A DNA stretch of 64,000 bases, from assembly GCF_965641715.1 (NCBI RefSeq), contig NZ_OZ282453.1; one strand, 5' to 3'. Made by a program: the position numbers and the translations under genes. The notes under the pieces are model-generated. The model saw nothing but the letters and a program-made list of their open reading frames with translations, was not told where the DNA came from and did no database searches. Source of the stretch: Escherichia coli. Lineage in GTDB: Bacteria > Pseudomonadota > Gammaproteobacteria > Enterobacterales > Enterobacteriaceae. Below are positions 3,774-20,550 of the stretch, one piece after another. Every line of letters begins with the position of its first letter. Position 1 is the stretch's first letter.

Positions 3774-5000
3774 TTATCTCACCAGCTTTTCGGCACGCTG
3801 GTGTTTGGCCTGATACATATTGTGATCGGCAAGCTCTTGTAATTTTTCCGCAGAGGCGTGCTCAATGGTCATCGCGTAACCAATGCTTAATGTCATGGTG
3901 GTCTGATGGCCATTATTAAGATCAAACGGGAGATTAAAGATTTGTGTCAGTGCTGAGCATATCTGCTGCACTTCAGATTCCGACTGTACATCATAGAGCA
4001 CCATAGCGAATTCATCGCCGCCCAGGCGGTATGCTTTATGTCGCAGCCCGCCAAATTCAGCTAACCGTTTTGCGATTTCAATCAAGACTCTATCGCCCGT
4101 CGCATGACCCCAGGTATCATTGATATATTTGAAATTATCGCCATCAAGAAATAGTAACGCCGACGTTTTTCGGGCATCGGAATTGTTCATCAACGTATTG
4201 ATGCCGCTACGAAACGCTGCGCGGTTAGCCAGCCCGGTTAATGGGTCATGTAGCGCGGTACGCAGAAGCTGCGCATTTTTGGCCTGTAAACGAAGCTGCC
4301 ACTCTTCCATTTCATCCAGCAGACTGTTGAAGTCGAGAGCGAAGCGGTGAAACTCAGCGATACGTTCTTCCGAAACTCGTCGGGAAAAATTGCGGTTGGA
4401 ACGCACATCATGTACGACATCGGTGATATTTTTCAGTGCTTCCACCAGGCCATTGTGCAAATGGCGGGTGAGGGTAATTGCGATTCCTGATGCCAGCAGA
4501 ATACAACCGGTCAGTACGGCGAGCGAAAACCAGATAAAATGGCTGATTGAACTGTCGCGAGCGGTTAAGCGTACTTCGCCAATGGTTTCACCATTGTGAC
4601 GAATCGGCTGAATGATGGGGGCAGGGAAGAGCCAGTGGCTTATGAAATTGCTGAAAGTATCGCCTGGATCCTTACGGGTGTAATGCCAGGATGCCAGAAT
4701 ATTTTGCTGCTTATCACGTACTTCTGCAGTTGAAAATTGCCCTTGCTGGCCCAGCGCTGCCAGTGTTTCAGTTGCTGCAGGGCCATCGGCAAAAACGACA
4801 GCTGCTTCCAGACTGTAAGTCATTGTTGCTGCTGTCAGTGCCAGGTTTTTTTGCGCGTACTGTTTCAGGGTCAGCACCGAGGTCACGGAAAGCAGCAACC
4901 AGATCAGCATCATAGTGATAAATATGCTGGTCATACTGATGTTGCGTAATGCTCTTTTAAACGTGGGGCGCTTATTAAGAGAATTATCGTTATCCATCAT
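3774..5000 (-). CDS. dgcN: Diguanylate cyclase DgcN (YfiN), membrane-anchored GGDEF protein
   Basis: 408 aa with N-terminal transmembrane/periplasmic region and C-terminal GGDEF domain (RLGGDEF motif). Confidence 0.85.
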
Positions 5001-15046: not shown

Positions 15047-17869
15047 ATGACGGCAGAGTACATCAGGGACTGGCAACAACCGCGCCACGCAGTGGGACGT
15101 GAAGGAACGGGGATCCCCGTTCCTGAATCCGCGCTTTCCTCCTGGCTGGATGCCTACCGGGCAGAGAACGAGCGCCGCCAGGAAATGGCTGATGCGGCGT
15201 TCTCCGCCACGCCGCTGGGCAACCTGATTAATAAAAGCCTGGATGCACAGGAAAAACAGGACAAAACCATCACACTGGCAGGAGACGCCAGAAAACAGGT
15301 ACGCGGTGCGGTGGATGAAGCCATGGCCTCGCTGCGCCTGCTGCCGTCCTATCTGCGCGATCCGCTTATTCGCCACCTCTCCTTCCTGCGCAAAAAACAG
15401 GAAGCCGATCGCCGGAAAGGCAAAAAGAGCTGGCAGGCTGAACGCTACGCGCGCGGAACCCTGCGCAAAATATTCGAACGTCTGGACCGCACCGACCACC
15501 GCTGGCTGACACCGGGTTATCGCTCCCTTGCCGGACGCGAACGCCTGGATGATTTGCTTTACCTGCCGCAGCTCAACAAGCACCAGATACAGACGCTGGC
15601 CACCATGACGGCGGCGATGTTCAGCAGCACCTTCGAAAAACTCTGCGATGGCTTTGGCGCGACTGATGGCGAGCTGACCATGGATGTAACGCTGAAGGCG
15701 TATCAGATGCTGGCCCGCATGGCGTTACACCTGCACGCCATGCCTCCGCATTATGATGCACTGACAACAGACAAAGACCGGAGGAACGAACCGGACACGG
15801 AGCTGCTGCCGGGCGCAATCCTTCGCCTGACCTGTGCGGAATGGTGGAAACGCAAACTGTGGCTGTTACGTTGCGAGTGGCGGGAAGAACAACTCCGCGC
15901 CGCCTGTCTGGTTTCCAGAAAAACATCGCCCTATCTGAGCCAGGACGCGTTAAGCGAGTTTCGCGCACAGCGCGAGAAAACACGCGATTTCCTGAAAAGT
16001 TTCATGCTGGAAAACGAAGACGGGTTCACGATTGATCTCGAGACGGTGTATTACGCGGGAGTAAGTAACCCGGTTCATCGTAAGGCAGAAATGATGGCCA
16101 CCATGAAGGGGCTGGAACTTCTGGCCGAAGCCCGTGGCGACAAAGCGGTGTTTCTGACTGTCACCTGCCCGTCAAAATACCACGCCACAACAGAGAACGG
16201 TCATCCGAATCCCAAATGGAACGGGGCCACCATGCGCGACTCCAGCGATTACCTGGTTAACACGTTTTTTGCGGCGGTCCGCAAGAAACTGAACCGCGAC
16301 GGCCTGCGCTGGTATGGCATCCGCACGGTGGAGCCTCACCATGACGGCACCGTGCACTGGCATATGATGGTCTTTGCTCATCCGGAAGAAATCGACACCA
16401 TTGTGTCCCACACCCGCGATATTGCCATTCAGGAAGATCGTCACGAGCTGGGTGATGATATTACCCCACGCTTTAAGGCGGAGTACGTCGACGGCTCAAA
16501 AGGCACACCGACCAGCTACATCGCCACCTACATCGGGAAAAACCTGGACAGCCGTGCCGTGGATGGCATCGACCCGAAAACGGGCAAGCCACGCGTTGAC
16601 CACGAAACCGGAAAATCAATGGCCGAGAGCGTGGAACGCGCCATCGGCTGGGCGCGCCTTCATCGGGTCCGCCAGTTCCAGTTCTTTGGCATCCCCTCCC
16701 GTCAGGTGTGGCGTGAACTGCGCCGCCTTGCCAGCCAGATGGCTCGCAACCCGGAAGGACCGCAACGGCTGAAGGATGACGCAATGGACGCGGTTCTTGC
16801 TGCCGCTGATGCCGGATGTTTTGCCACCTACATAGAGAAACAGGGCGGCGTACTTGTTCCACGCAAGGACTACCTGATTCGCACCGCCTACGACCTCGCA
16901 GATGAGCTGAACGATTACGGTGAACAGAGCGTACAGATTTACGGGATCTGGTCACCGCTCATCGGGGAGTCTTCCCGCGTATGCACGCATCCGGACAACT
17001 GGAAGCTGGTAAGACGCAAACCGGAAGCGGAAGACAGCGCCCGCGAAAATGGTTTTGACCTTCAGGGCGGCCCTGCCGCCCCTTGGACTCGTGGCAATAA
17101 CTGTCCCCGTGTACAGGAAACAGGCAACAGCGGGACAGAACAGTCGAAAGAACGGCCAGCACCGTGGCCGCAGCTTCCTGACGGCGTTGACGTGAACGAA
17201 TGGATGCGCTCACTGAAACGGCACGAACGCCGGGCGCTGATGCGTTCGCTTCGTGACAAACAGGCAAAAAACAGCAGTGATGAAATGCAGAGCTGGACAC
17301 AGAGCCGCAAACAGCCACGGCCTTTGCCTGATAACCACGAATTACTCGCTAAAGAATGGCGGGAGTCTGCTGAATCTCTCGGCCTGCATATCGGTGAACA
17401 ACAGATGCAGCACCTGTTACGGGGCGGCAGTCTGTACGTTGACGGCAGCATCATTGCACCGCAGGGATTTGAAATTGTACGCAAACCGGATACCCGCCCG
17501 GACAGCCGAATCACGCAGCTCTGGCAGCGCCTGAGCCGTAATCATGGCGTAAGCAGCACGGAGATCCGCCATAACCCGGTCGCCAGCTATCTGGCACAGC
17601 TGGGGGCATCAGACCCTGAAGCCGCCGCACGCCTGGCATCCACACTTCAGCAGGACCAGAACACCATGAAAACACCCGTTACCGTGCTTTCTGACATGCT
17701 GCGCGCCATCCGCGACGCAGAGCACGCACAGAGAATCAGTGAAACCACTGAACGCGCCAGCCGCAAAGCAGACCTGCTGCGGGGTGGCCTGACCAGTGGA
17801 AACAAAAAACAGACAGAAACGGGATTCACAAATCCCATAAATGAGCAAAAAACGTGCCGCGATATATGA
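15047..17869 (+). CDS. Rolling-circle replication initiator (P2 gpA-like endonuclease)
   Basis: 940 aa with a HUH-type motif (VHWHMMVF); position after the early genes as in P2. Longer than P2 A as I recall it. Confidence 0.85.
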   Translation: MTAEYIRDWQQPRHAVGREGTGIPVPESALSSWLDAYRAENERRQEMADAAFSATPLGNLINKSLDAQEKQDKTITLAGDARKQVRGAVDEAMASLRLLPSYLRDPLIRHLSFLRKKQEADRRKGKKSWQAERYARGTLRKIFERLDRTDHRWLTPGYRSLAGRERLDDLLYLPQLNKHQIQTLATMTAAMFSSTFEKLCDGFGATDGELTMDVTLKAYQMLARMALHLHAMPPHYDALTTDKDRRNEPDTELLPGAILRLTCAEWWKRKLWLLRCEWREEQLRAACLVSRKTSPYLSQDALSEFRAQREKTRDFLKSFMLENEDGFTIDLETVYYAGVSNPVHRKAEMMATMKGLELLAEARGDKAVFLTVTCPSKYHATTENGHPNPKWNGATMRDSSDYLVNTFFAAVRKKLNRDGLRWYGIRTVEPHHDGTVHWHMMVFAHPEEIDTIVSHTRDIAIQEDRHELGDDITPRFKAEYVDGSKGTPTSYIATYIGKNLDSRAVDGIDPKTGKPRVDHETGKSMAESVERAIGWARLHRVRQFQFFGIPSRQVWRELRRLASQMARNPEGPQRLKDDAMDAVLAAADAGCFATYIEKQGGVLVPRKDYLIRTAYDLADELNDYGEQSVQIYGIWSPLIGESSRVCTHPDNWKLVRRKPEAEDSARENGFDLQGGPAAPWTRGNNCPRVQETGNSGTEQSKERPAPWPQLPDGVDVNEWMRSLKRHERRALMRSLRDKQAKNSSDEMQSWTQSRKQPRPLPDNHELLAKEWRESAESLGLHIGEQQMQHLLRGGSLYVDGSIIAPQGFEIVRKPDTRPDSRITQLWQRLSRNHGVSSTEIRHNPVASYLAQLGASDPEAAARLASTLQQDQNTMKTPVTVLSDMLRAIRDAEHAQRISETTERASRKADLLRGGLTSGNKKQTETGFTNPINEQKTCRDI

Positions 17870-17945
17870 AGCGCGCACAAAACAGGCAAAAGCGGGATTT
17901 AAAAATCCTGTAAACGATTAATTAATCAACATAAGGAAAAGCGAC

Positions 17946-18905
17946 ATGAAAATTTGTATCGACGACGGCTCCACCAACATCAAGCTGGCATGGACTGAGA
18001 ACGGCGAACGCCGCAACGCCATCAGCCCGAACAGCTTCAAGTCGGAATGGTCTGCGCCGTTCGGTGGCTCGCAGCCCGCGAACTACATGCTTGATGGCGT
18101 GCGCTATGGTTTTGATCCGGTCAGCGATCGCTTTGTCCAGACGACCGACACGCAATACCAGTACAGCGATGTGAATGTCATTGCCATTCATCACGCGCTG
18201 GTCAAATCAGGCATCACGCCACAGGAGGTGGATGTGGTTGTCACCCTGCCATTGAGCGAGTATTTCGACACAAACGCACAGCCGGACATGGCCAACATCA
18301 GCCGCAAAAAAGCGAACGTTATGCGCCCGGTGGAGTACCAGAACGGCGAAACATTCACTATCCGTAACGTACGGGTTATGCCTGAATCCATTCCGGCTGG
18401 CTTTAAAGCACTGGCTGACATGAGTCCGCTTGAATCCCTGCTGATTGTGGATTTGGGCGGAACCACACTGGATGTGGCAAAGGTTCAGGGGCAACTGGCA
18501 GGTATCAGCCAGGTGTTTTGCGATCCACACGTAGGCGTTTCCCTGATGGCCGATGCCGTACTGTCGGTGATGGCCACTAACGGTATGCGTATCAGTCACC
18601 ACATCGCCAATACCATTATCGAACATCGCCATGATGAAGCCTGGTTGCGCCAGCACATCCACAATGACGCGCATTACGCCAGCCTGATGGCGGTTATTCG
18701 TGAAAAGGAAGAAACACTGAAACAACGCGTGATCCGCGCGCTGGCGGTTTTTTCGGGTTACGGGCGGGTGATGGTTGTCGGTGGCGGGGCGGAGATTGTG
18801 GCACCCGCTATCCGCGAAGCCTGCGGAGTTAATGCGACTTTCATCGCGGACGGGGTGCCACAGTTTGCTCTGGTTAATGGGCTGTACGCAATGGACAAGG
18901 AGTAA
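17946..18905 (+). CDS. ParM/StbA-like actin-type segregation ATPase
   Basis: N-terminus MKICIDDGSTNIKLAW... and later ...YSDVNVIAIHHAL... closely resemble plasmid R1 ParM (MLVFIDDGSTNIKLQW...YSDVNVVAVHHAL) as recalled. Confidence 0.85.
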   Translation: MKICIDDGSTNIKLAWTENGERRNAISPNSFKSEWSAPFGGSQPANYMLDGVRYGFDPVSDRFVQTTDTQYQYSDVNVIAIHHALVKSGITPQEVDVVVTLPLSEYFDTNAQPDMANISRKKANVMRPVEYQNGETFTIRNVRVMPESIPAGFKALADMSPLESLLIVDLGGTTLDVAKVQGQLAGISQVFCDPHVGVSLMADAVLSVMATNGMRISHHIANTIIEHRHDEAWLRQHIHNDAHYASLMAVIREKEETLKQRVIRALAVFSGYGRVMVVGGGAEIVAPAIREACGVNATFIADGVPQFALVNGLYAMDKE

Positions 18906-18909
18906 ACCA

Positions 18910-19221
18910 ATGACGACTCCAACCAGACGGATAAGTTTCTATCTGAAGCCCGCCGCCGTCAAGAACGAAGGTGAAGCATGCGCCTGGCTGGACAGCCTTA
19001 CACCAGAAGCGCGCAAAAGCGGCCAACGCGTGGCTTTTCTGGCCGGGCTGGCACTTCTGAAAATGAATCCGGCAGAGGCTTACCGACTGGCTGCATGGGC
19101 TGATGATGAAGCGTTATCAGTGACACAAACCAGGACAGAACGCCCCGCGTCACAGCCAGTATCAACCGCACAGATAACCAGTCAGATGGCCGGAAATATC
19201 CGGGCGTTATTTCCCGAATAA
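18910..19221 (+). CDS. ParR/StbB-like centromere-binding adaptor
   Basis: 103 aa from ATG 18910 (AAGGAG RBS); RRISFYLKP...LDSLTPEARKSGQRVAFLAGLAL and C-terminal NIRALFPE parallel R1 ParR; 4 nt after the ParM stop. Confidence 0.7.
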   Translation: MTTPTRRISFYLKPAAVKNEGEACAWLDSLTPEARKSGQRVAFLAGLALLKMNPAEAYRLAAWADDEALSVTQTRTERPASQPVSTAQITSQMAGNIRALFPE

Positions 19222-19284: not shown

Positions 19285-19620
19285 ATGCAACGCATTGACA
19301 GAGAAAAAGCGCAGCGACTGATTGAGCGGATGGAAGCGCTGGCGAAAGAAGAAAATGTCAACATCCAAAAAATAGCTGAATGTGGCCAGATAGTTCTTCG
19401 TCGTGAAAAAGACCTCAAACAACTGATGTCTGGCGAAACCAGCAAAACATGGACTTCAGGTGAGGAGACGATTTATTGCAGCTTCTGCAATAAATCCCAG
19501 TACGAAGTCACAAAGGTGATTGCCGGACCGTCTGTTTACATCTGCAATGAGTGCGTTGATTTGTGCAATGAAGTTATCAGGAGAGAAGTGACAGACCATG
19601 AAGAAAAAACGCATGAATGA
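19285..19620 (+). CDS. Protein with C-terminal ClpX-type C4 zinc-binding domain
   Basis: C-terminal [39 protein letters not shown] is near-identical to the ClpX N-domain as recalled; N-terminal ~65 aa unrelated and helical. Confidence 0.75.
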
Positions 19621-19786: not shown

Positions 19787-20194
19787 TTAAATATAATCTT
19801 CTTCGTAGTCGCTGATTAATTCATTGCCATAATCAGACAGCAATTTCAAAGCAAAGGTAACTTCCTCAAGGGTAGCTATCCCCATTGCTGAAAACACCGT
19901 TAATTTAACCAGCAGCAGGGAGTTTGAAAGTTCGGAAGAGTTCATCATTAAAAATATTGATGCAGCCTGAAAAGCTGTGCGTTTATTCCCATCATGAAAG
20001 GCATGAGCCTTGGCTATACCAATCAAATACATAGCAGCCAGAGCATGAATATCATCAACCCCTTCATAGTAGTGTAGTGTCCTGACGCGATTTAAAGCAC
20101 CTTCAAGTAGCCCGTCATTGGCATTTCCGCTCTGGGGTAAAGTTTCAGCATGGATACGTTCTACTTGTTCTTTTGACAAAAACACTATGTCCAT
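19787..20194 (-). CDS. Doc-family (Fic-fold) toxin
   Basis: 135 aa with Fic/Doc active-site motif HAFHDGNKRTAF; downstream of and overlapping the antitoxin gene. Confidence 0.8.
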   Translation of the reverse strand: MDIVFLSKEQVERIHAETLPQSGNANDGLLEGALNRVRTLHYYEGVDDIHALAAMYLIGIAKAHAFHDGNKRTAFQAASIFLMMNSSELSNSLLLVKLTVFSAMGIATLEEVTFALKLLSDYGNELISDYEEDYI

Positions 20195-20550
20195 CAGTTA
20201 TCCTCAAGCTTTTTAATGATATCCGCATGTTTTTCTCTTGTACGCTTCATTGCATCTTCAAAAGACAATCCTTTTTTTCTCTGTGCGACAAGAGCTGGAT
20301 GACGTTTTTCCAGATCTCTCACTGCATTTATTAAGAGTGGTTGCTTCATTTTGTTTATTTGATCCCGCAGTTTTTTGGTTTTGCCAAGGACAGCCCGTAT
20401 TTCAGGACTAAGATCAGAACCAGCAAGAACAACATCCTTCCCTCCCTGCGCCGTGATAACGACACTGCCACCGGAAGAAAGGTAATCCAGAATTTCACTC
20501 AGGTTCTCACGAAATTCATCATCAGTTACAGTTTTCATATTCATTTCCAT
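20194..20550 (-). CDS. Phd/YefM-like antitoxin with C-terminal extension
   Basis: N-terminus ...MKTVTDDEFRENLSEILDYL...VVITAQGGKDVVLA fits the Phd/YefM pattern; stop overlaps the Doc start. Confidence 0.65.
   Translation of the reverse strand: MEMNMKTVTDDEFRENLSEILDYLSSGGSVVITAQGGKDVVLAGSDLSPEIRAVLGKTKKLRDQINKMKQPLLINAVRDLEKRHPALVAQRKKGLSFEDAMKRTREKHADIIKKLEDN

What the first reader, a model, noticed from the sequence alone, without database searches (positions are those of the whole stretch)
17806..17917. Imperfect ~40-bp direct repeats with palindromic cores across the 3' end of gene A and the parM upstream region
Two copies of AAAACAG-CA-AAA-CGGGATT-N5-AATCC-TAAA-GA lie about 73 bp apart (cores GGGATTCACAAATCCC about 17821-17836 and GGGATTTAAAAATCC about 17894-17908). 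The first is inside the C-terminal coding region of A and the second just upstream of parM. They are candidate ParR binding sites (parC-like) or promoter operators. Only two copies are present, fewer than the iteron arrays of classical parC.
Basis: seen in the sequence. Interest (0 to 1): 0.45.

Follow-up and report, generated by a model that had tools for sequence, protein, structure and literature searches.

The report
Prophage partition site upstream of parM
Two copies of a ~40-bp repeat with palindromic cores, 73 bp apart just upstream of parM in a P88/P2-like E. coli prophage, are most likely the binding sites (centromere and operator) for the prophage's ParR partition protein; this would be an uncharacterised example of a well-known kind of element.

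Summary
A 42-nt direct repeat (17803-17844 and 17876-17917, 33/42 identical, 73 bp apart) far exceeds chance, and each copy holds a 16-bp box GGGATT-N4-AATCC(C/T).

The window is a P88-like (Xuanwuvirus, P2-like) prophage. The repeats lie upstream of a parM (47% identical to R1 ParM) and parR (StbB/ParR ribbon-helix-helix family) pair.

- Two GGG-N10-CC(C/T) boxes occur in 89 of 92 related loci, 73 bp apart in 84 of them.
- The boxes persist at the same positions in Hafnia and Plesiomonas prophages (ParM about 62% identical). There the flanks and the overlapping upstream reading frame are unrelated.
- A par-less prophage with an almost identical gene A lacks the boxes.

The repeats therefore belong to the par cassette, not to gene A. 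They act at the DNA level, and gene A simply reads into them.

Best explanation: a compact parC-like ParR-binding site with four half-sites of the AA(A/T)CCC type, which resembles R1 iterons. Binding, promoter and centromere activity are untested.

It is a new, uncharacterised member of a known kind, of moderate to low interest. The cassette is common: the 1-kb query spanning the 3' end of A, the repeats and the start of parM matched in 1371 of 5426 complete E. coli genomes.

The parts
17803..17844 (+). Distal repeat unit (copy 1), inside the 3' end of gene A
   Evidence: 42-nt direct repeat, 79% identical to copy 2, spacing 73. It exceeds all 300 shuffles.
17821..17836 (.). Box 1: GGGATTCACAAATCCC, a 6+4+6 palindrome made of two inverted AATCCC half-sites
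   Evidence: The GGG and AATCC edges are nearly invariant and the centre is variable in 85 P88-like loci. A box sits at the same position in Hafnia, Plesiomonas and L102.
17876..17917 (+). Proximal repeat unit (copy 2), in the gap between A and parM
   Evidence: The population consensus, AAA[A/G]CGGGATTT[C/A]A[G/A]AATCCCGTAAACGA, matches copy 1 even better than the window's own allele does.
17894..17909 (.). Box 2: GGGATTTAAAAATCCT (GGGATTT..AATCCC in most relatives), 52 nt upstream of the parM ATG
   Evidence: In 92 loci, box 2 starts 51 to 59 nt upstream of the ATG.
17917..17929 (+). Conserved ATTAATTAATCAA element between box 2 and the ribosome-binding site; possibly the -10 region of a par promoter (inferred only)
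   Evidence: ATTAATCAA is invariant across E. coli, Hafnia and Plesiomonas in alignment A1. No sigma-70 consensus promoter was found by scan, but the same scan also misses the promoter reported in the literature for R1 parC.
17946..18905 (+). parM (StbA), actin-like segregation ATPase
   Evidence: Pfam StbA_N 4e-82 and ParM C-terminal domain 3.5e-68. PDB R1 ParM E=7.5e-94, 47% identity. pN/pS 0.08 across the population.
18910..19221 (+). parR (StbB), ribbon-helix-helix centromere-binding adaptor
   Evidence: Pfam Plasmid_stab_B 1.6e-24. The profile hits pB171 ParR, PDB 2JD3, at E=2.6e-14. 34% identical to the R1 ParR N-terminus. N-terminal TRRISFYLKP and C-terminal NIRALFPE are conserved and the linker is hypervariable.
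17758..17869 (+). Tail of gene A contributed by the par cargo module; homology to par-less prophages ends at about 17757
   Evidence: Alignment with E. coli SA31-1, which has a near-identical A gene and no parMR. The last 22 codons of A have pN/pS 0.96, against 0.38 for the preceding 51 codons. A tails are unrelated in other lineages.

Best explanation
The two repeat units are the cis-acting site of a type II (ParMRC) partition cassette carried as cargo by a P88/P2-like prophage. In other words, they form a compact parC.

Each unit holds a 16-bp box made of two inverted AA(A/T)CCC-type half-sites whose centres are 10 bp apart. That geometry would let two ribbon-helix-helix ParR dimers bind successive major grooves on one face of the DNA. 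The two boxes are 73 bp, about seven helical turns, apart and so face the same side. ParR bound at both boxes would nucleate the ParR-DNA complex that caps ParM filaments.

Box 2 starts about 25 bp upstream of the conserved ATTAAT element in front of parM. ParR bound there would probably also repress parMR transcription.

Shown here:
- the repeat and its statistical significance;
- the identity of the ParM and ParR families;
- co-inheritance of the boxes with parMR;
- conservation of box position and spacing across diverged lineages, independent of the overlapping coding frame.

Inferred:
- that ParR is the binding protein;
- one dimer per half-site;
- operator and centromere function;
- the position of the promoter.
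For: 1. Context. The boxes lie directly upstream of parM-parR. Both genes are confidently assigned and parM is under strong purifying selection (pN/pS 0.08).

2. Module membership. An E. coli prophage with a near-identical A gene but different cargo lacks both boxes, and homology stops at about 17757. In Hafnia L008 an extra 167-aa gene separates A from parM, and the boxes stay next to parM.

3. Conservation of position.
- Of 92 loci, 89 have exactly two GGG-N10-CC[CT] boxes in the 200 nt before parM. Spacing is 73 in 84 of them and 71-74 in the rest.
- Hafnia L008 has boxes at 3873 and 3946, and Plesiomonas L010 at 3870 and 3942 (ParM 61-62% identical). The boxes sit at the same positions while flanks diverge.
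- Identity to the window is 12/16 and 10/16 for the boxes against 22/49 between them in Hafnia, and 10/16 and 8/16 against 19/49 in Plesiomonas.
- The repeat finder independently finds the Plesiomonas pair, 26 nt with spacing 72.

4. Parallel change. Both Plesiomonas boxes read GGGACAAC where both E. coli boxes read GGGATT. This is expected if one protein reads both boxes.

5. DNA level, not peptide level. Box 1 is read as G-F-T-N-P in E. coli A, as A-G-Q-Q-K-P in Plesiomonas A, and in another frame of an unrelated ORF in Hafnia. In L102, A stops inside box 1. The A tail evolves neutrally.

6. Family resemblance.
- R1 parC iterons (L015: AAACAAAACCC, AAAAACAACCC and so on) are A-tract plus CCC, like the box half-sites.
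- R1 parC is also bipartite (PMC2241845).
- The region is AT-rich with a strong excess of A over T on the top strand.
- A lineage whose ParR differs (NRKISFYLKP) has a different upstream repeat.

7. Precedent. pB171 ParR is reported to bind only two repeats (PMC9426499).
Against: - No binding data exist, and I found no paper describing this site.
- No sigma-70 consensus promoter was detected near the boxes, so the operator role is unsupported. There is also no terminator between A and parM, so parMR may simply be read through from the early operon.
- The ParRs characterised so far bind direct repeats, often in larger arrays (PMC9426499, PMC2241845). Here the cores are palindromic and there are only two.
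- Only the GGG...CCC edges and the A-rich right half are conserved between lineages, and the excess conservation of the boxes over their flanks is moderate.
- There is no fine-scale covariation between ParR N-terminal variants and box variants within E. coli. The beta-strand is invariant, so that test has no power.
- A-tract phasing is seen in E. coli only (p about 0.02) and not in Hafnia or Plesiomonas.
Confidence: 0.72

Rival explanations
1. The boxes are operators for a regulator other than ParR, for example a phage early or late regulator or a host factor. They would control expression of parMR or of the end of the early operon, with no centromere role.
For: Palindromic 16-bp boxes are typical of dimeric regulators in general. 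No experiment links them to ParR. The boxes sit at the junction between the early operon and the cargo genes.
Against: The boxes are present only when parMR is present. They stay adjacent to parM when other genes intervene. A lineage with a different ParR has a different repeat. The half-sites resemble R1 iterons. No match to CRP, IHF or Fis consensus was seen by eye, using consensus sequences recalled from memory.
Confidence: 0.12
2. The element acts at the RNA level. The two palindromes form hairpins, or pair with each other, in a polycistronic A-parM transcript and control its stability, processing or parM translation.
For: Folded as RNA, the E. coli region is more stable than shuffles: z = -3.4 for the window and z = -5.8 for L011, where box 1 pairs with box 2. 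No terminator separates A from parM.
Against: Extra stability follows automatically from two similar palindromes. It is not conserved: Hafnia z = +0.3 and Plesiomonas z = -1.3. In those lineages only the GGG/CCC ends can pair, a 3-bp stem. There is no T-run after either stem on the + strand.
Confidence: 0.06
3. The repeat is a coding feature. Both copies encode K-Q-x-x-x-G-F-x-N-P-[IV]-N-[ED]. Copy 2 is read in a 26-aa ORF (17841-17921), or after a frameshift from A.
For: Both copies translate to similar peptides in the relevant frames. The 26-aa ORF is intact in about 80 of 85 related loci and in L102. Its pN/pS is 0.44, against about 1 in the other two frames.
Against: There is no Shine-Dalgarno sequence before the ATG. 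11 of 26 residues differ in L102 with only 2 synonymous changes. The ORF is absent in Hafnia L008 and Plesiomonas although the boxes persist. Box 1 is read in different frames and different proteins in different lineages. The A tail has pN/pS 0.96. The ORF's start and stop lie inside conserved DNA motifs, and its constant length follows from the fixed 73-bp spacing. The copy-2 frame is +1 relative to A, with no known +1 shift signal.
Confidence: 0.04
4. The repeats belong to the replication origin used by protein A. P2-family origins lie inside gene A (recalled from the literature, not checked here).
For: Copy 1 lies within the 3' end of gene A.
Against: A prophage whose A gene is nearly identical up to about 17757 lacks both boxes, although it should need the same origin. 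In Hafnia the boxes are separated from A by a 504-bp gene. In the Enterobacter L013 prophage two further genes separate A from parM, so the par cassette and its upstream repeat are not tied to A.
Confidence: 0.03

Closest known systems
parC of plasmid R1 (type II ParMRC locus)
   Same: It lies immediately upstream of parM-parR. ParM is 47% identical and ParR belongs to the same Pfam family. The layout is bipartite, with two repeat blocks. The top strand is A-rich, and the half-sites are an A-tract followed by CCC (PMC2241845).
   Different: R1 has ten 11-bp direct iterons in two blocks of five around a 39-bp promoter core, 159 bp in all. Here there are two 16-bp palindromic boxes (four half-sites) 73 bp apart. 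Nothing between the boxes is conserved across lineages. The distal box is overlapped by the upstream gene. The host element is an integrating P2-like prophage, not a plasmid.
parC of pB171 par1 (ParR structure 2JD3)
   Same: [quoted passage not shown]
   Different: The repeat sequences and lengths differ. The pB171 repeats are described as simple direct repeats, not palindromic boxes seven turns apart. The pB171 sequence was not examined here.
srpC of SXT/R391 integrative conjugative elements
   Same: It is a ParMRC-like cassette on an element that is normally integrated. Its cis site has four short repeats in both direct and inverted orientation upstream of the actin-like gene, is bound by the adaptor in EMSA, and is needed for plasmid stabilisation (PMC4489591).
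   Different: SrpR has no detectable similarity to ParR/StbB, and the repeat sequences are unrelated. That system was tested experimentally; this one was not.
par cassettes of other P2-like prophages (Serratia, Enterobacter, IMG/VR L096)
   Same: They occupy the same genomic slot downstream of gene A and carry homologous ParM (55-59%) and ParR.
   Different: Their upstream repeat is a pair of 19-20-nt inverted arms (GGAACGAAATAGAAAAAT) 28 nt apart, entirely intergenic.

Membership tests
parC (centromere/operator) of type II ParMRC partition loci | Lies immediately upstream of a parM-parR gene pair | tested here: met
   The boxes lie 125 and 52 nt upstream of the parM ATG, and parR follows parM.
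parC (centromere/operator) of type II ParMRC partition loci | A cognate ribbon-helix-helix ParR adaptor and an actin-like ParM are encoded alongside | tested here: met
   ParM: Pfam 4e-82, PDB R1 ParM 7.5e-94. ParR: Pfam PF10784 1.6e-24, profile to 2JD3 2.6e-14.
parC (centromere/operator) of type II ParMRC partition loci | Consists of repeated sequence units (two or more) | tested here: met
   Two 42-nt units, 33/42 identical, beyond all 300 shuffles. The motif is unique to these two sites in the window.
parC (centromere/operator) of type II ParMRC partition loci | Inherited together with parMR and conserved in diverged cassettes | tested here: met
   Absent from a par-less prophage with the same A gene. 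Present at the same positions in L102, Hafnia and Plesiomonas and in 89 of 92 loci.
parC (centromere/operator) of type II ParMRC partition loci | Overlaps or flanks the par promoter and mediates autoregulation by ParR | tested here: inconclusive
   No consensus promoter by scan, but the scan also misses the promoter reported for R1. A conserved ATTAAT element lies about 25 nt downstream of the start of box 2.
parC (centromere/operator) of type II ParMRC partition loci | Specifically bound by ParR | not testable with these tools
   Needs EMSA, footprinting or ChIP.
parC (centromere/operator) of type II ParMRC partition loci | Required in cis for plasmid stabilisation; exerts incompatibility | not testable with these tools
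   Needs plasmid-loss and incompatibility assays.
R1-type parC architecture | Ten 11-bp direct iterons in two blocks of five flanking a 39-bp promoter core | tested here: not met
   There are only two units and four half-sites, in inverted pairs. R1 layout taken from PMC2241845 and L015.
Intrinsic (Rho-independent) terminator of gene A | G+C-rich stem-loop followed by a T-run on the coding strand | tested here: not met
   No + strand terminator was found. The only hit is a weak minus-strand match at box 1. The stems are followed by ATAAAT and GTAAAC.
Replication origin of the P2-type A protein | Present in every phage that uses the same A protein | tested here: not met
   SA31-1 has an A gene nearly identical up to about window 17757 but lacks the boxes. 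In Hafnia the boxes are separated from A by another gene.

The most novel reading that the evidence does not exclude
This two-box site is a minimal, fully functional centromere. It would let an integrating P2-like phage, found in about a quarter of complete E. coli genomes, segregate or position its excised or replicating circular genome with ParM filaments. That could mean a transient or alternative plasmid state, or a role in lytic DNA handling like AlpAC in the Corynebacterium prophage CGP3. Because the distal box lies inside the end of replication gene A, ParR binding might also couple the end of early-operon transcription to partition.
Probability: 0.25. Interest if true: 0.55.

Novelty: new member of a known kind. 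Interest (0 to 1): 0.3.

Why it matters
The 1-kb query spanning the 3' end of A, the repeats and the start of parM matched in 1371 of 5426 complete E. coli genomes. Rousset et al. note that about a quarter of P2-like phages carry a putative partition system whose role is unknown (PMC9122126).

Defining the cis site gives a precise handle for testing that role. With point mutations in two 16-bp boxes one can ask:
- whether these prophages can persist or segregate as plasmids;
- whether the cassette causes incompatibility with resident plasmids;
- how few ParR sites suffice for a type II centromere.

It also shows that the last 22 or so codons of the annotated A protein are unconstrained read-through into a cargo module. 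That is useful for annotation and for mapping the boundary of the P2 variable hotspot.

Tried and rejected
- **Peptide repeat, frameshift or 26-aa ORF.** Both copies encode similar peptides and the ORF is mostly intact. I rejected this as the main explanation because box 1 is read in different frames and different proteins across lineages, the ORF is absent in Hafnia and Plesiomonas, and the peptide diverges freely.
- **Terminator.** None on the coding strand.
- **Conserved RNA structure.** Significant only in E. coli.
- **Phased A-tracts or intrinsic curvature as a conserved feature.** Weak in E. coli (p about 0.02) and absent in Hafnia and Plesiomonas.
- **Sigma-70 promoter scan.** Negative everywhere, including R1, so uninformative.
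- **Fine-scale covariation between ParR N-terminal variants and box variants in E. coli.** No signal, because the DNA-reading strand TRRISFYLKP is invariant.
- **The one genome-contig scan with ParM.** It returned only three near-identical loci.
- **Viral-contig scans with Hafnia and Plesiomonas ParM.** They returned nothing and one distant locus.
- **Plasmid and phage databases.** There are no intermediates between 95-99% and below 60% ParM identity. Intermediates came only from the large protein collection.
- **PDB sequence search with ParR alone.** Empty; only the profile found 2JD3.
- **Møller-Jensen 2007 (PMC2034672).** Not held in the library.
Full report
**What is in the sequence.** The window around the finding carries the 3' end of a 940-aa replication gene A (15047-17869; Pfam Phage_GPA, 2.3e-131). 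A 76-bp gap follows, then parM (17946-18905) and parR (18910-19221). Portal and terminase genes lie further downstream on the minus strand. DNA searches identify the element as a P88-like, P2-related prophage (genus Xuanwuvirus; Sp13 of E. coli O157 Sakai). It is 96-98% identical to 14 phage records. The 1-kb query spanning the 3' end of A, the repeats and the start of parM matched in 1371 of 5426 complete E. coli genomes.

**Check of the observation.** The repeat finder reports a 42-nt direct repeat, 17803-17844 and 17876-17917, 79% identical and 73 bp apart.
- In 300 dinucleotide-preserving shuffles of 17500-18200 the best 42-nt pair had 23.8 +/- 1.0 matches, with a maximum of 27, against 33 observed.
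- The cores are GGGATTCACAAATCCC (17821-17836) and GGGATTTAAAAATCCT (17894-17909).
- The extended motif CGGGATTN4AATCCCGTAAA, with up to 3 mismatches, is found only at these two places in 64 kb, against 0.04 expected.
Everything else in the description holds.
- The region 17800-17950 is AT-rich (39-42% G+C against about 58% around it), with a strong excess of A over T on the top strand.

**The genes it sits in front of.**
- ParM matches both Pfam ParM domains (4e-82 and 3.5e-68) and the R1 ParM crystal-structure sequence (E=7.5e-94). It is 47% identical to R1 ParM.
- ParR matches Pfam Plasmid_stab_B (1.6e-24). It is 34% identical to R1 ParR over the N-terminal 56 residues. A profile of nine relatives hits the ribbon-helix-helix ParR of pB171 (PDB 2JD3, E=2.6e-14).
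- Across relatives the N-terminal strand TRRISFYLKP and the C-terminal N-I-R-A-L-F-P motif are conserved, while residues 65-95 are hypervariable. By analogy with R1, the C-terminal motif is the peptide that binds ParM.
- parM is under strong purifying selection in the population (pN/pS 0.08). This is a genuine and apparently functional type II partition gene pair.

**The repeats belong to the par cassette, not to gene A.** Three results show this.
- E. coli SA31-1 carries a P2-like prophage whose A gene is nearly identical to the window up to about 17757. Similarity then collapses, both boxes are absent, and the cargo is an AAA ATPase plus an S8 peptidase instead of parMR.
- In a Hafnia prophage (L008, ParM 61% identical) a 167-aa gene lies between A and parM, and the boxes stay next to parM, inside the end of that unrelated gene.
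- The last 22 codons of E. coli A, which contain copy 1, evolve neutrally (pN/pS 0.96). The preceding 51 codons give 0.38.

The C-terminal tails of A in E. coli, Hafnia, Plesiomonas, Serratia and Enterobacter are unrelated. Gene A simply runs into the upstream region of a cargo module.

**Conservation of the boxes.**
- Among 92 loci with a recognisable parM start (IMG/VR L016-L095 and others), 89 have exactly two GGG-N10-CC[CT] boxes in the preceding 200 nt. They are 73 bp apart in 84 loci and 71-74 bp apart in the other five.
- The population consensus is AAACGGGA[T/C]TCAC[A/G]AATCCCGTAAATGA for copy 1 and AAA[A/G]CGGGATTT[C/A]A[G/A]AATCCCGTAAACGA for copy 2. The two copies are therefore more alike in most relatives than in this window. 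The GGG and AATCC edges are almost invariant and the central 4 nt vary, as expected for a symmetric protein-binding site.
- The three exceptions are informative. L039 has an exact 73-bp deletion that fuses the two copies. L054 has GGG changed to AGG in box 1, and L081 has the same change in both boxes.
- More distant lineages keep the architecture with changed sequence:
  - L102 (ParM 94%, ParR 74%): GGGATTCATGAATCCC and GGGATTTGAAAATCCC, 73 bp apart.
  - Hafnia L008: GGGATTGAGGAAACCC and GGGTTCATTAAATCCC, 73 bp apart.
  - Plesiomonas L010 (ParM 62%): GGGACAACAAAAACCC and GGGACAACACTAACCC, 72 bp apart, found independently by the repeat finder.
- Compared with the window, the boxes are more conserved than their surroundings. 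For L102 the figures are 14/16 and 14/16 against 31/49 between the boxes. For Hafnia they are 12/16 and 10/16 against 22/49, and for Plesiomonas 10/16 and 8/16 against 19/49.
- In Plesiomonas both boxes carry the same changed left half, a parallel change expected if one protein reads both.
- GGG-N10-CCC occurs only about ten times in the whole 64-kb window. Two boxes at a fixed spacing in the same place in four lineages is not chance.

**DNA level, not peptide level.** I noticed that both copies translate to similar peptides (KQTETGFTNPINE and KQAKAGFKNPVND). Copy 2 lies in a 26-aa ORF (17841-17921) in a different frame from A.
- The ORF is intact in about 80 of 85 relatives and in L102. Its pN/pS is 0.44, against about 1 in the other two frames.
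- Against a coding role:
  - It has no ribosome-binding site.
  - It differs at 11 of 26 residues in L102.
  - It is absent in Hafnia L008 and Plesiomonas.
  - Its start and stop lie inside conserved DNA motifs.
  - Its constant length follows from the fixed box spacing.
- Box 1 is read as G-F-T-N-P in E. coli A, as A-G-Q-Q-K-P in Plesiomonas A, and in another frame of an unrelated protein in Hafnia. In L102, A terminates at a TGA in the middle of box 1.

I therefore treat the coding reading as a minor rival.

**Other rivals.**
- There is no terminator on the coding strand.
- RNA folding of the E. coli region is more stable than shuffles (z = -3.4, and -5.8 in L011 where box 1 pairs with box 2). 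That follows from having two similar palindromes, and it is not seen in Hafnia (z = +0.3) or Plesiomonas (z = -1.3).
- The origin-of-replication idea fails because a prophage with the same A gene lacks the boxes.
- A-tract phasing is weak and confined to E. coli.

**Comparison with known centromeres.**
- R1 parC, read from an R1-type plasmid (L015, whose ParM matches the R1 ParM sequence as I recalled it), consists of 11-bp iterons such as AAACAAAACCC and AAAAACAACCC. They form two blocks of five around the promoter (PMC2241845).
- The right half of every box here (AAATCCC, AAAACCC, TAACCC) has the same form, an A-tract followed by CCC. The left half is its inverted copy. Each box thus looks like two inverted R1-type iterons with centres 10 bp apart.
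- Binding of ribbon-helix-helix dimers to adjacent subsites about one helical turn apart is established for this fold (general knowledge of Arc, MetJ, CopG, omega and ParG).
- Other relatives show how variable these sites are.
  - An IncL/M plasmid has 10-bp iteron blocks that are also 73 bp apart.
  - Phage-plasmid D6 has three TCTCA-N6-TCTCA units.
  - Serratia, Enterobacter and L096 P2-like cassettes, whose ParR strand reads NRKISFYLKP, have 19-20-nt inverted arms 28 nt apart.
- pB171 ParR is reported to bind only two 10-bp repeats (PMC9426499), so two units are not too few.
- The SXT/R391 srpMRC system is a tested precedent for a ParMRC-like cassette on an integrating element, with four direct and inverted repeats (PMC4489591).

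**Mechanism proposed.** ParR dimers bind the four half-sites. The two boxes, seven helical turns apart and on the same face of the DNA, nucleate the ParR-DNA complex that captures ParM filament ends. Box 2 starts about 25 nt upstream of the conserved ATTAAT(C)AA element and 52 nt upstream of the ATG, so it may double as the operator of a par promoter. The promoter is not established: consensus scans are negative, though they also miss the promoter reported for R1. Nothing terminates transcription between A and parM, so expression by read-through from the early operon is equally possible. The steps shown are repeat reality, gene identity, module membership and conservation. The steps inferred are ParR binding, stoichiometry, and centromere and operator function.

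**Novelty and interest.** The presence of a putative partition system in about a quarter of P2-like phages has been noted, with the suggestion that it might allow maintenance as plasmids (PMC9122126). I found no description of its cis site. This is a new, uncharacterised member of a known class (parC), with a compact palindromic two-box layout. Interest is moderate to low for the site itself. It is somewhat higher as a tool for asking why an integrating phage keeps a plasmid segregation machine. One complete P88-like genome is deposited as a 34.4-kb circular plasmid.

Noticed in passing
window 17841-17921 (+): A 26-aa ORF (MSKKRAAIYEARTKQAKAGFKNPVND) runs from the flank of box 1 to the ATTAAT element. 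It is intact in about 80 of 85 related loci and has the same length in L102, with pN/pS 0.44 against about 1 in the other frames. It has no ribosome-binding site and is absent in Hafnia L008 and Plesiomonas. It is probably a by-product of the fixed box spacing.
   Followed up: partly
window 17801-17866 (+); L102 1890-1932: The last 22 codons of gene A evolve neutrally (pN/pS 0.96) and are unrelated between lineages. In L102, A stops at a TGA in the centre of box 1. The annotated A C-terminus is read-through into the cargo module, whose junction lies at about 17757.
   Followed up: yes
L039 (IMG/VR), upstream of parM; L081: L039 has an exact 73-bp deletion that fuses the two repeat copies into one, consistent with unequal crossover between them. 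L081 has the same GGG-to-AGG change in both boxes.
   Followed up: partly
window 19102-19194 (ParR residues 65-95); alignment A4: The ParR linker is hypervariable among E. coli prophages, so overall identity falls to about 50%. The DNA-binding N-terminus and the C-terminal NIRALFPE motif stay conserved, and ParM stays about 97% identical.
   Followed up: partly
L098 = NZ_CP148288.1 (PLSDB): A complete P88-like genome (integrase, cox, A, parMR and structural genes) is deposited as a 34,461-bp circular 'plasmid' of an E. coli isolate. This could be an excised or replicating phage, or a true plasmid state.
   Followed up: no
window 19285-19620 (+) and 19787-20550 (-): The variable region between parR and the portal gene holds an ORF with a ClpX-type C4 zinc finger (3.1e-17) and a Phd/Doc-like toxin-antitoxin pair (Fic/DOC 3.5e-11; Phd_YefM 7.8e-07, just below Pfam's cut-off).
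   Followed up: partly
L012 3882-3947; L013 3883-3950; L096 2384-2449: P2-like prophages of Serratia and Enterobacter, and one IMG/VR contig, carry a homologous parMR. Their upstream repeat is different: 19-20-nt inverted arms (GGAACGAAATAGAAAAAT) 28 nt apart, and their ParR has a different N-terminal strand (NRKISFYLKP).
   Followed up: partly
L003 1343-1475 (IncL/M plasmid pKPC-edb7): The region upstream of this plasmid's parM has 10-bp iteron blocks (CTGTATTTTTC-like) whose start-to-start spacing is also 73 bp, the same as the box spacing in the prophage.
   Followed up: no
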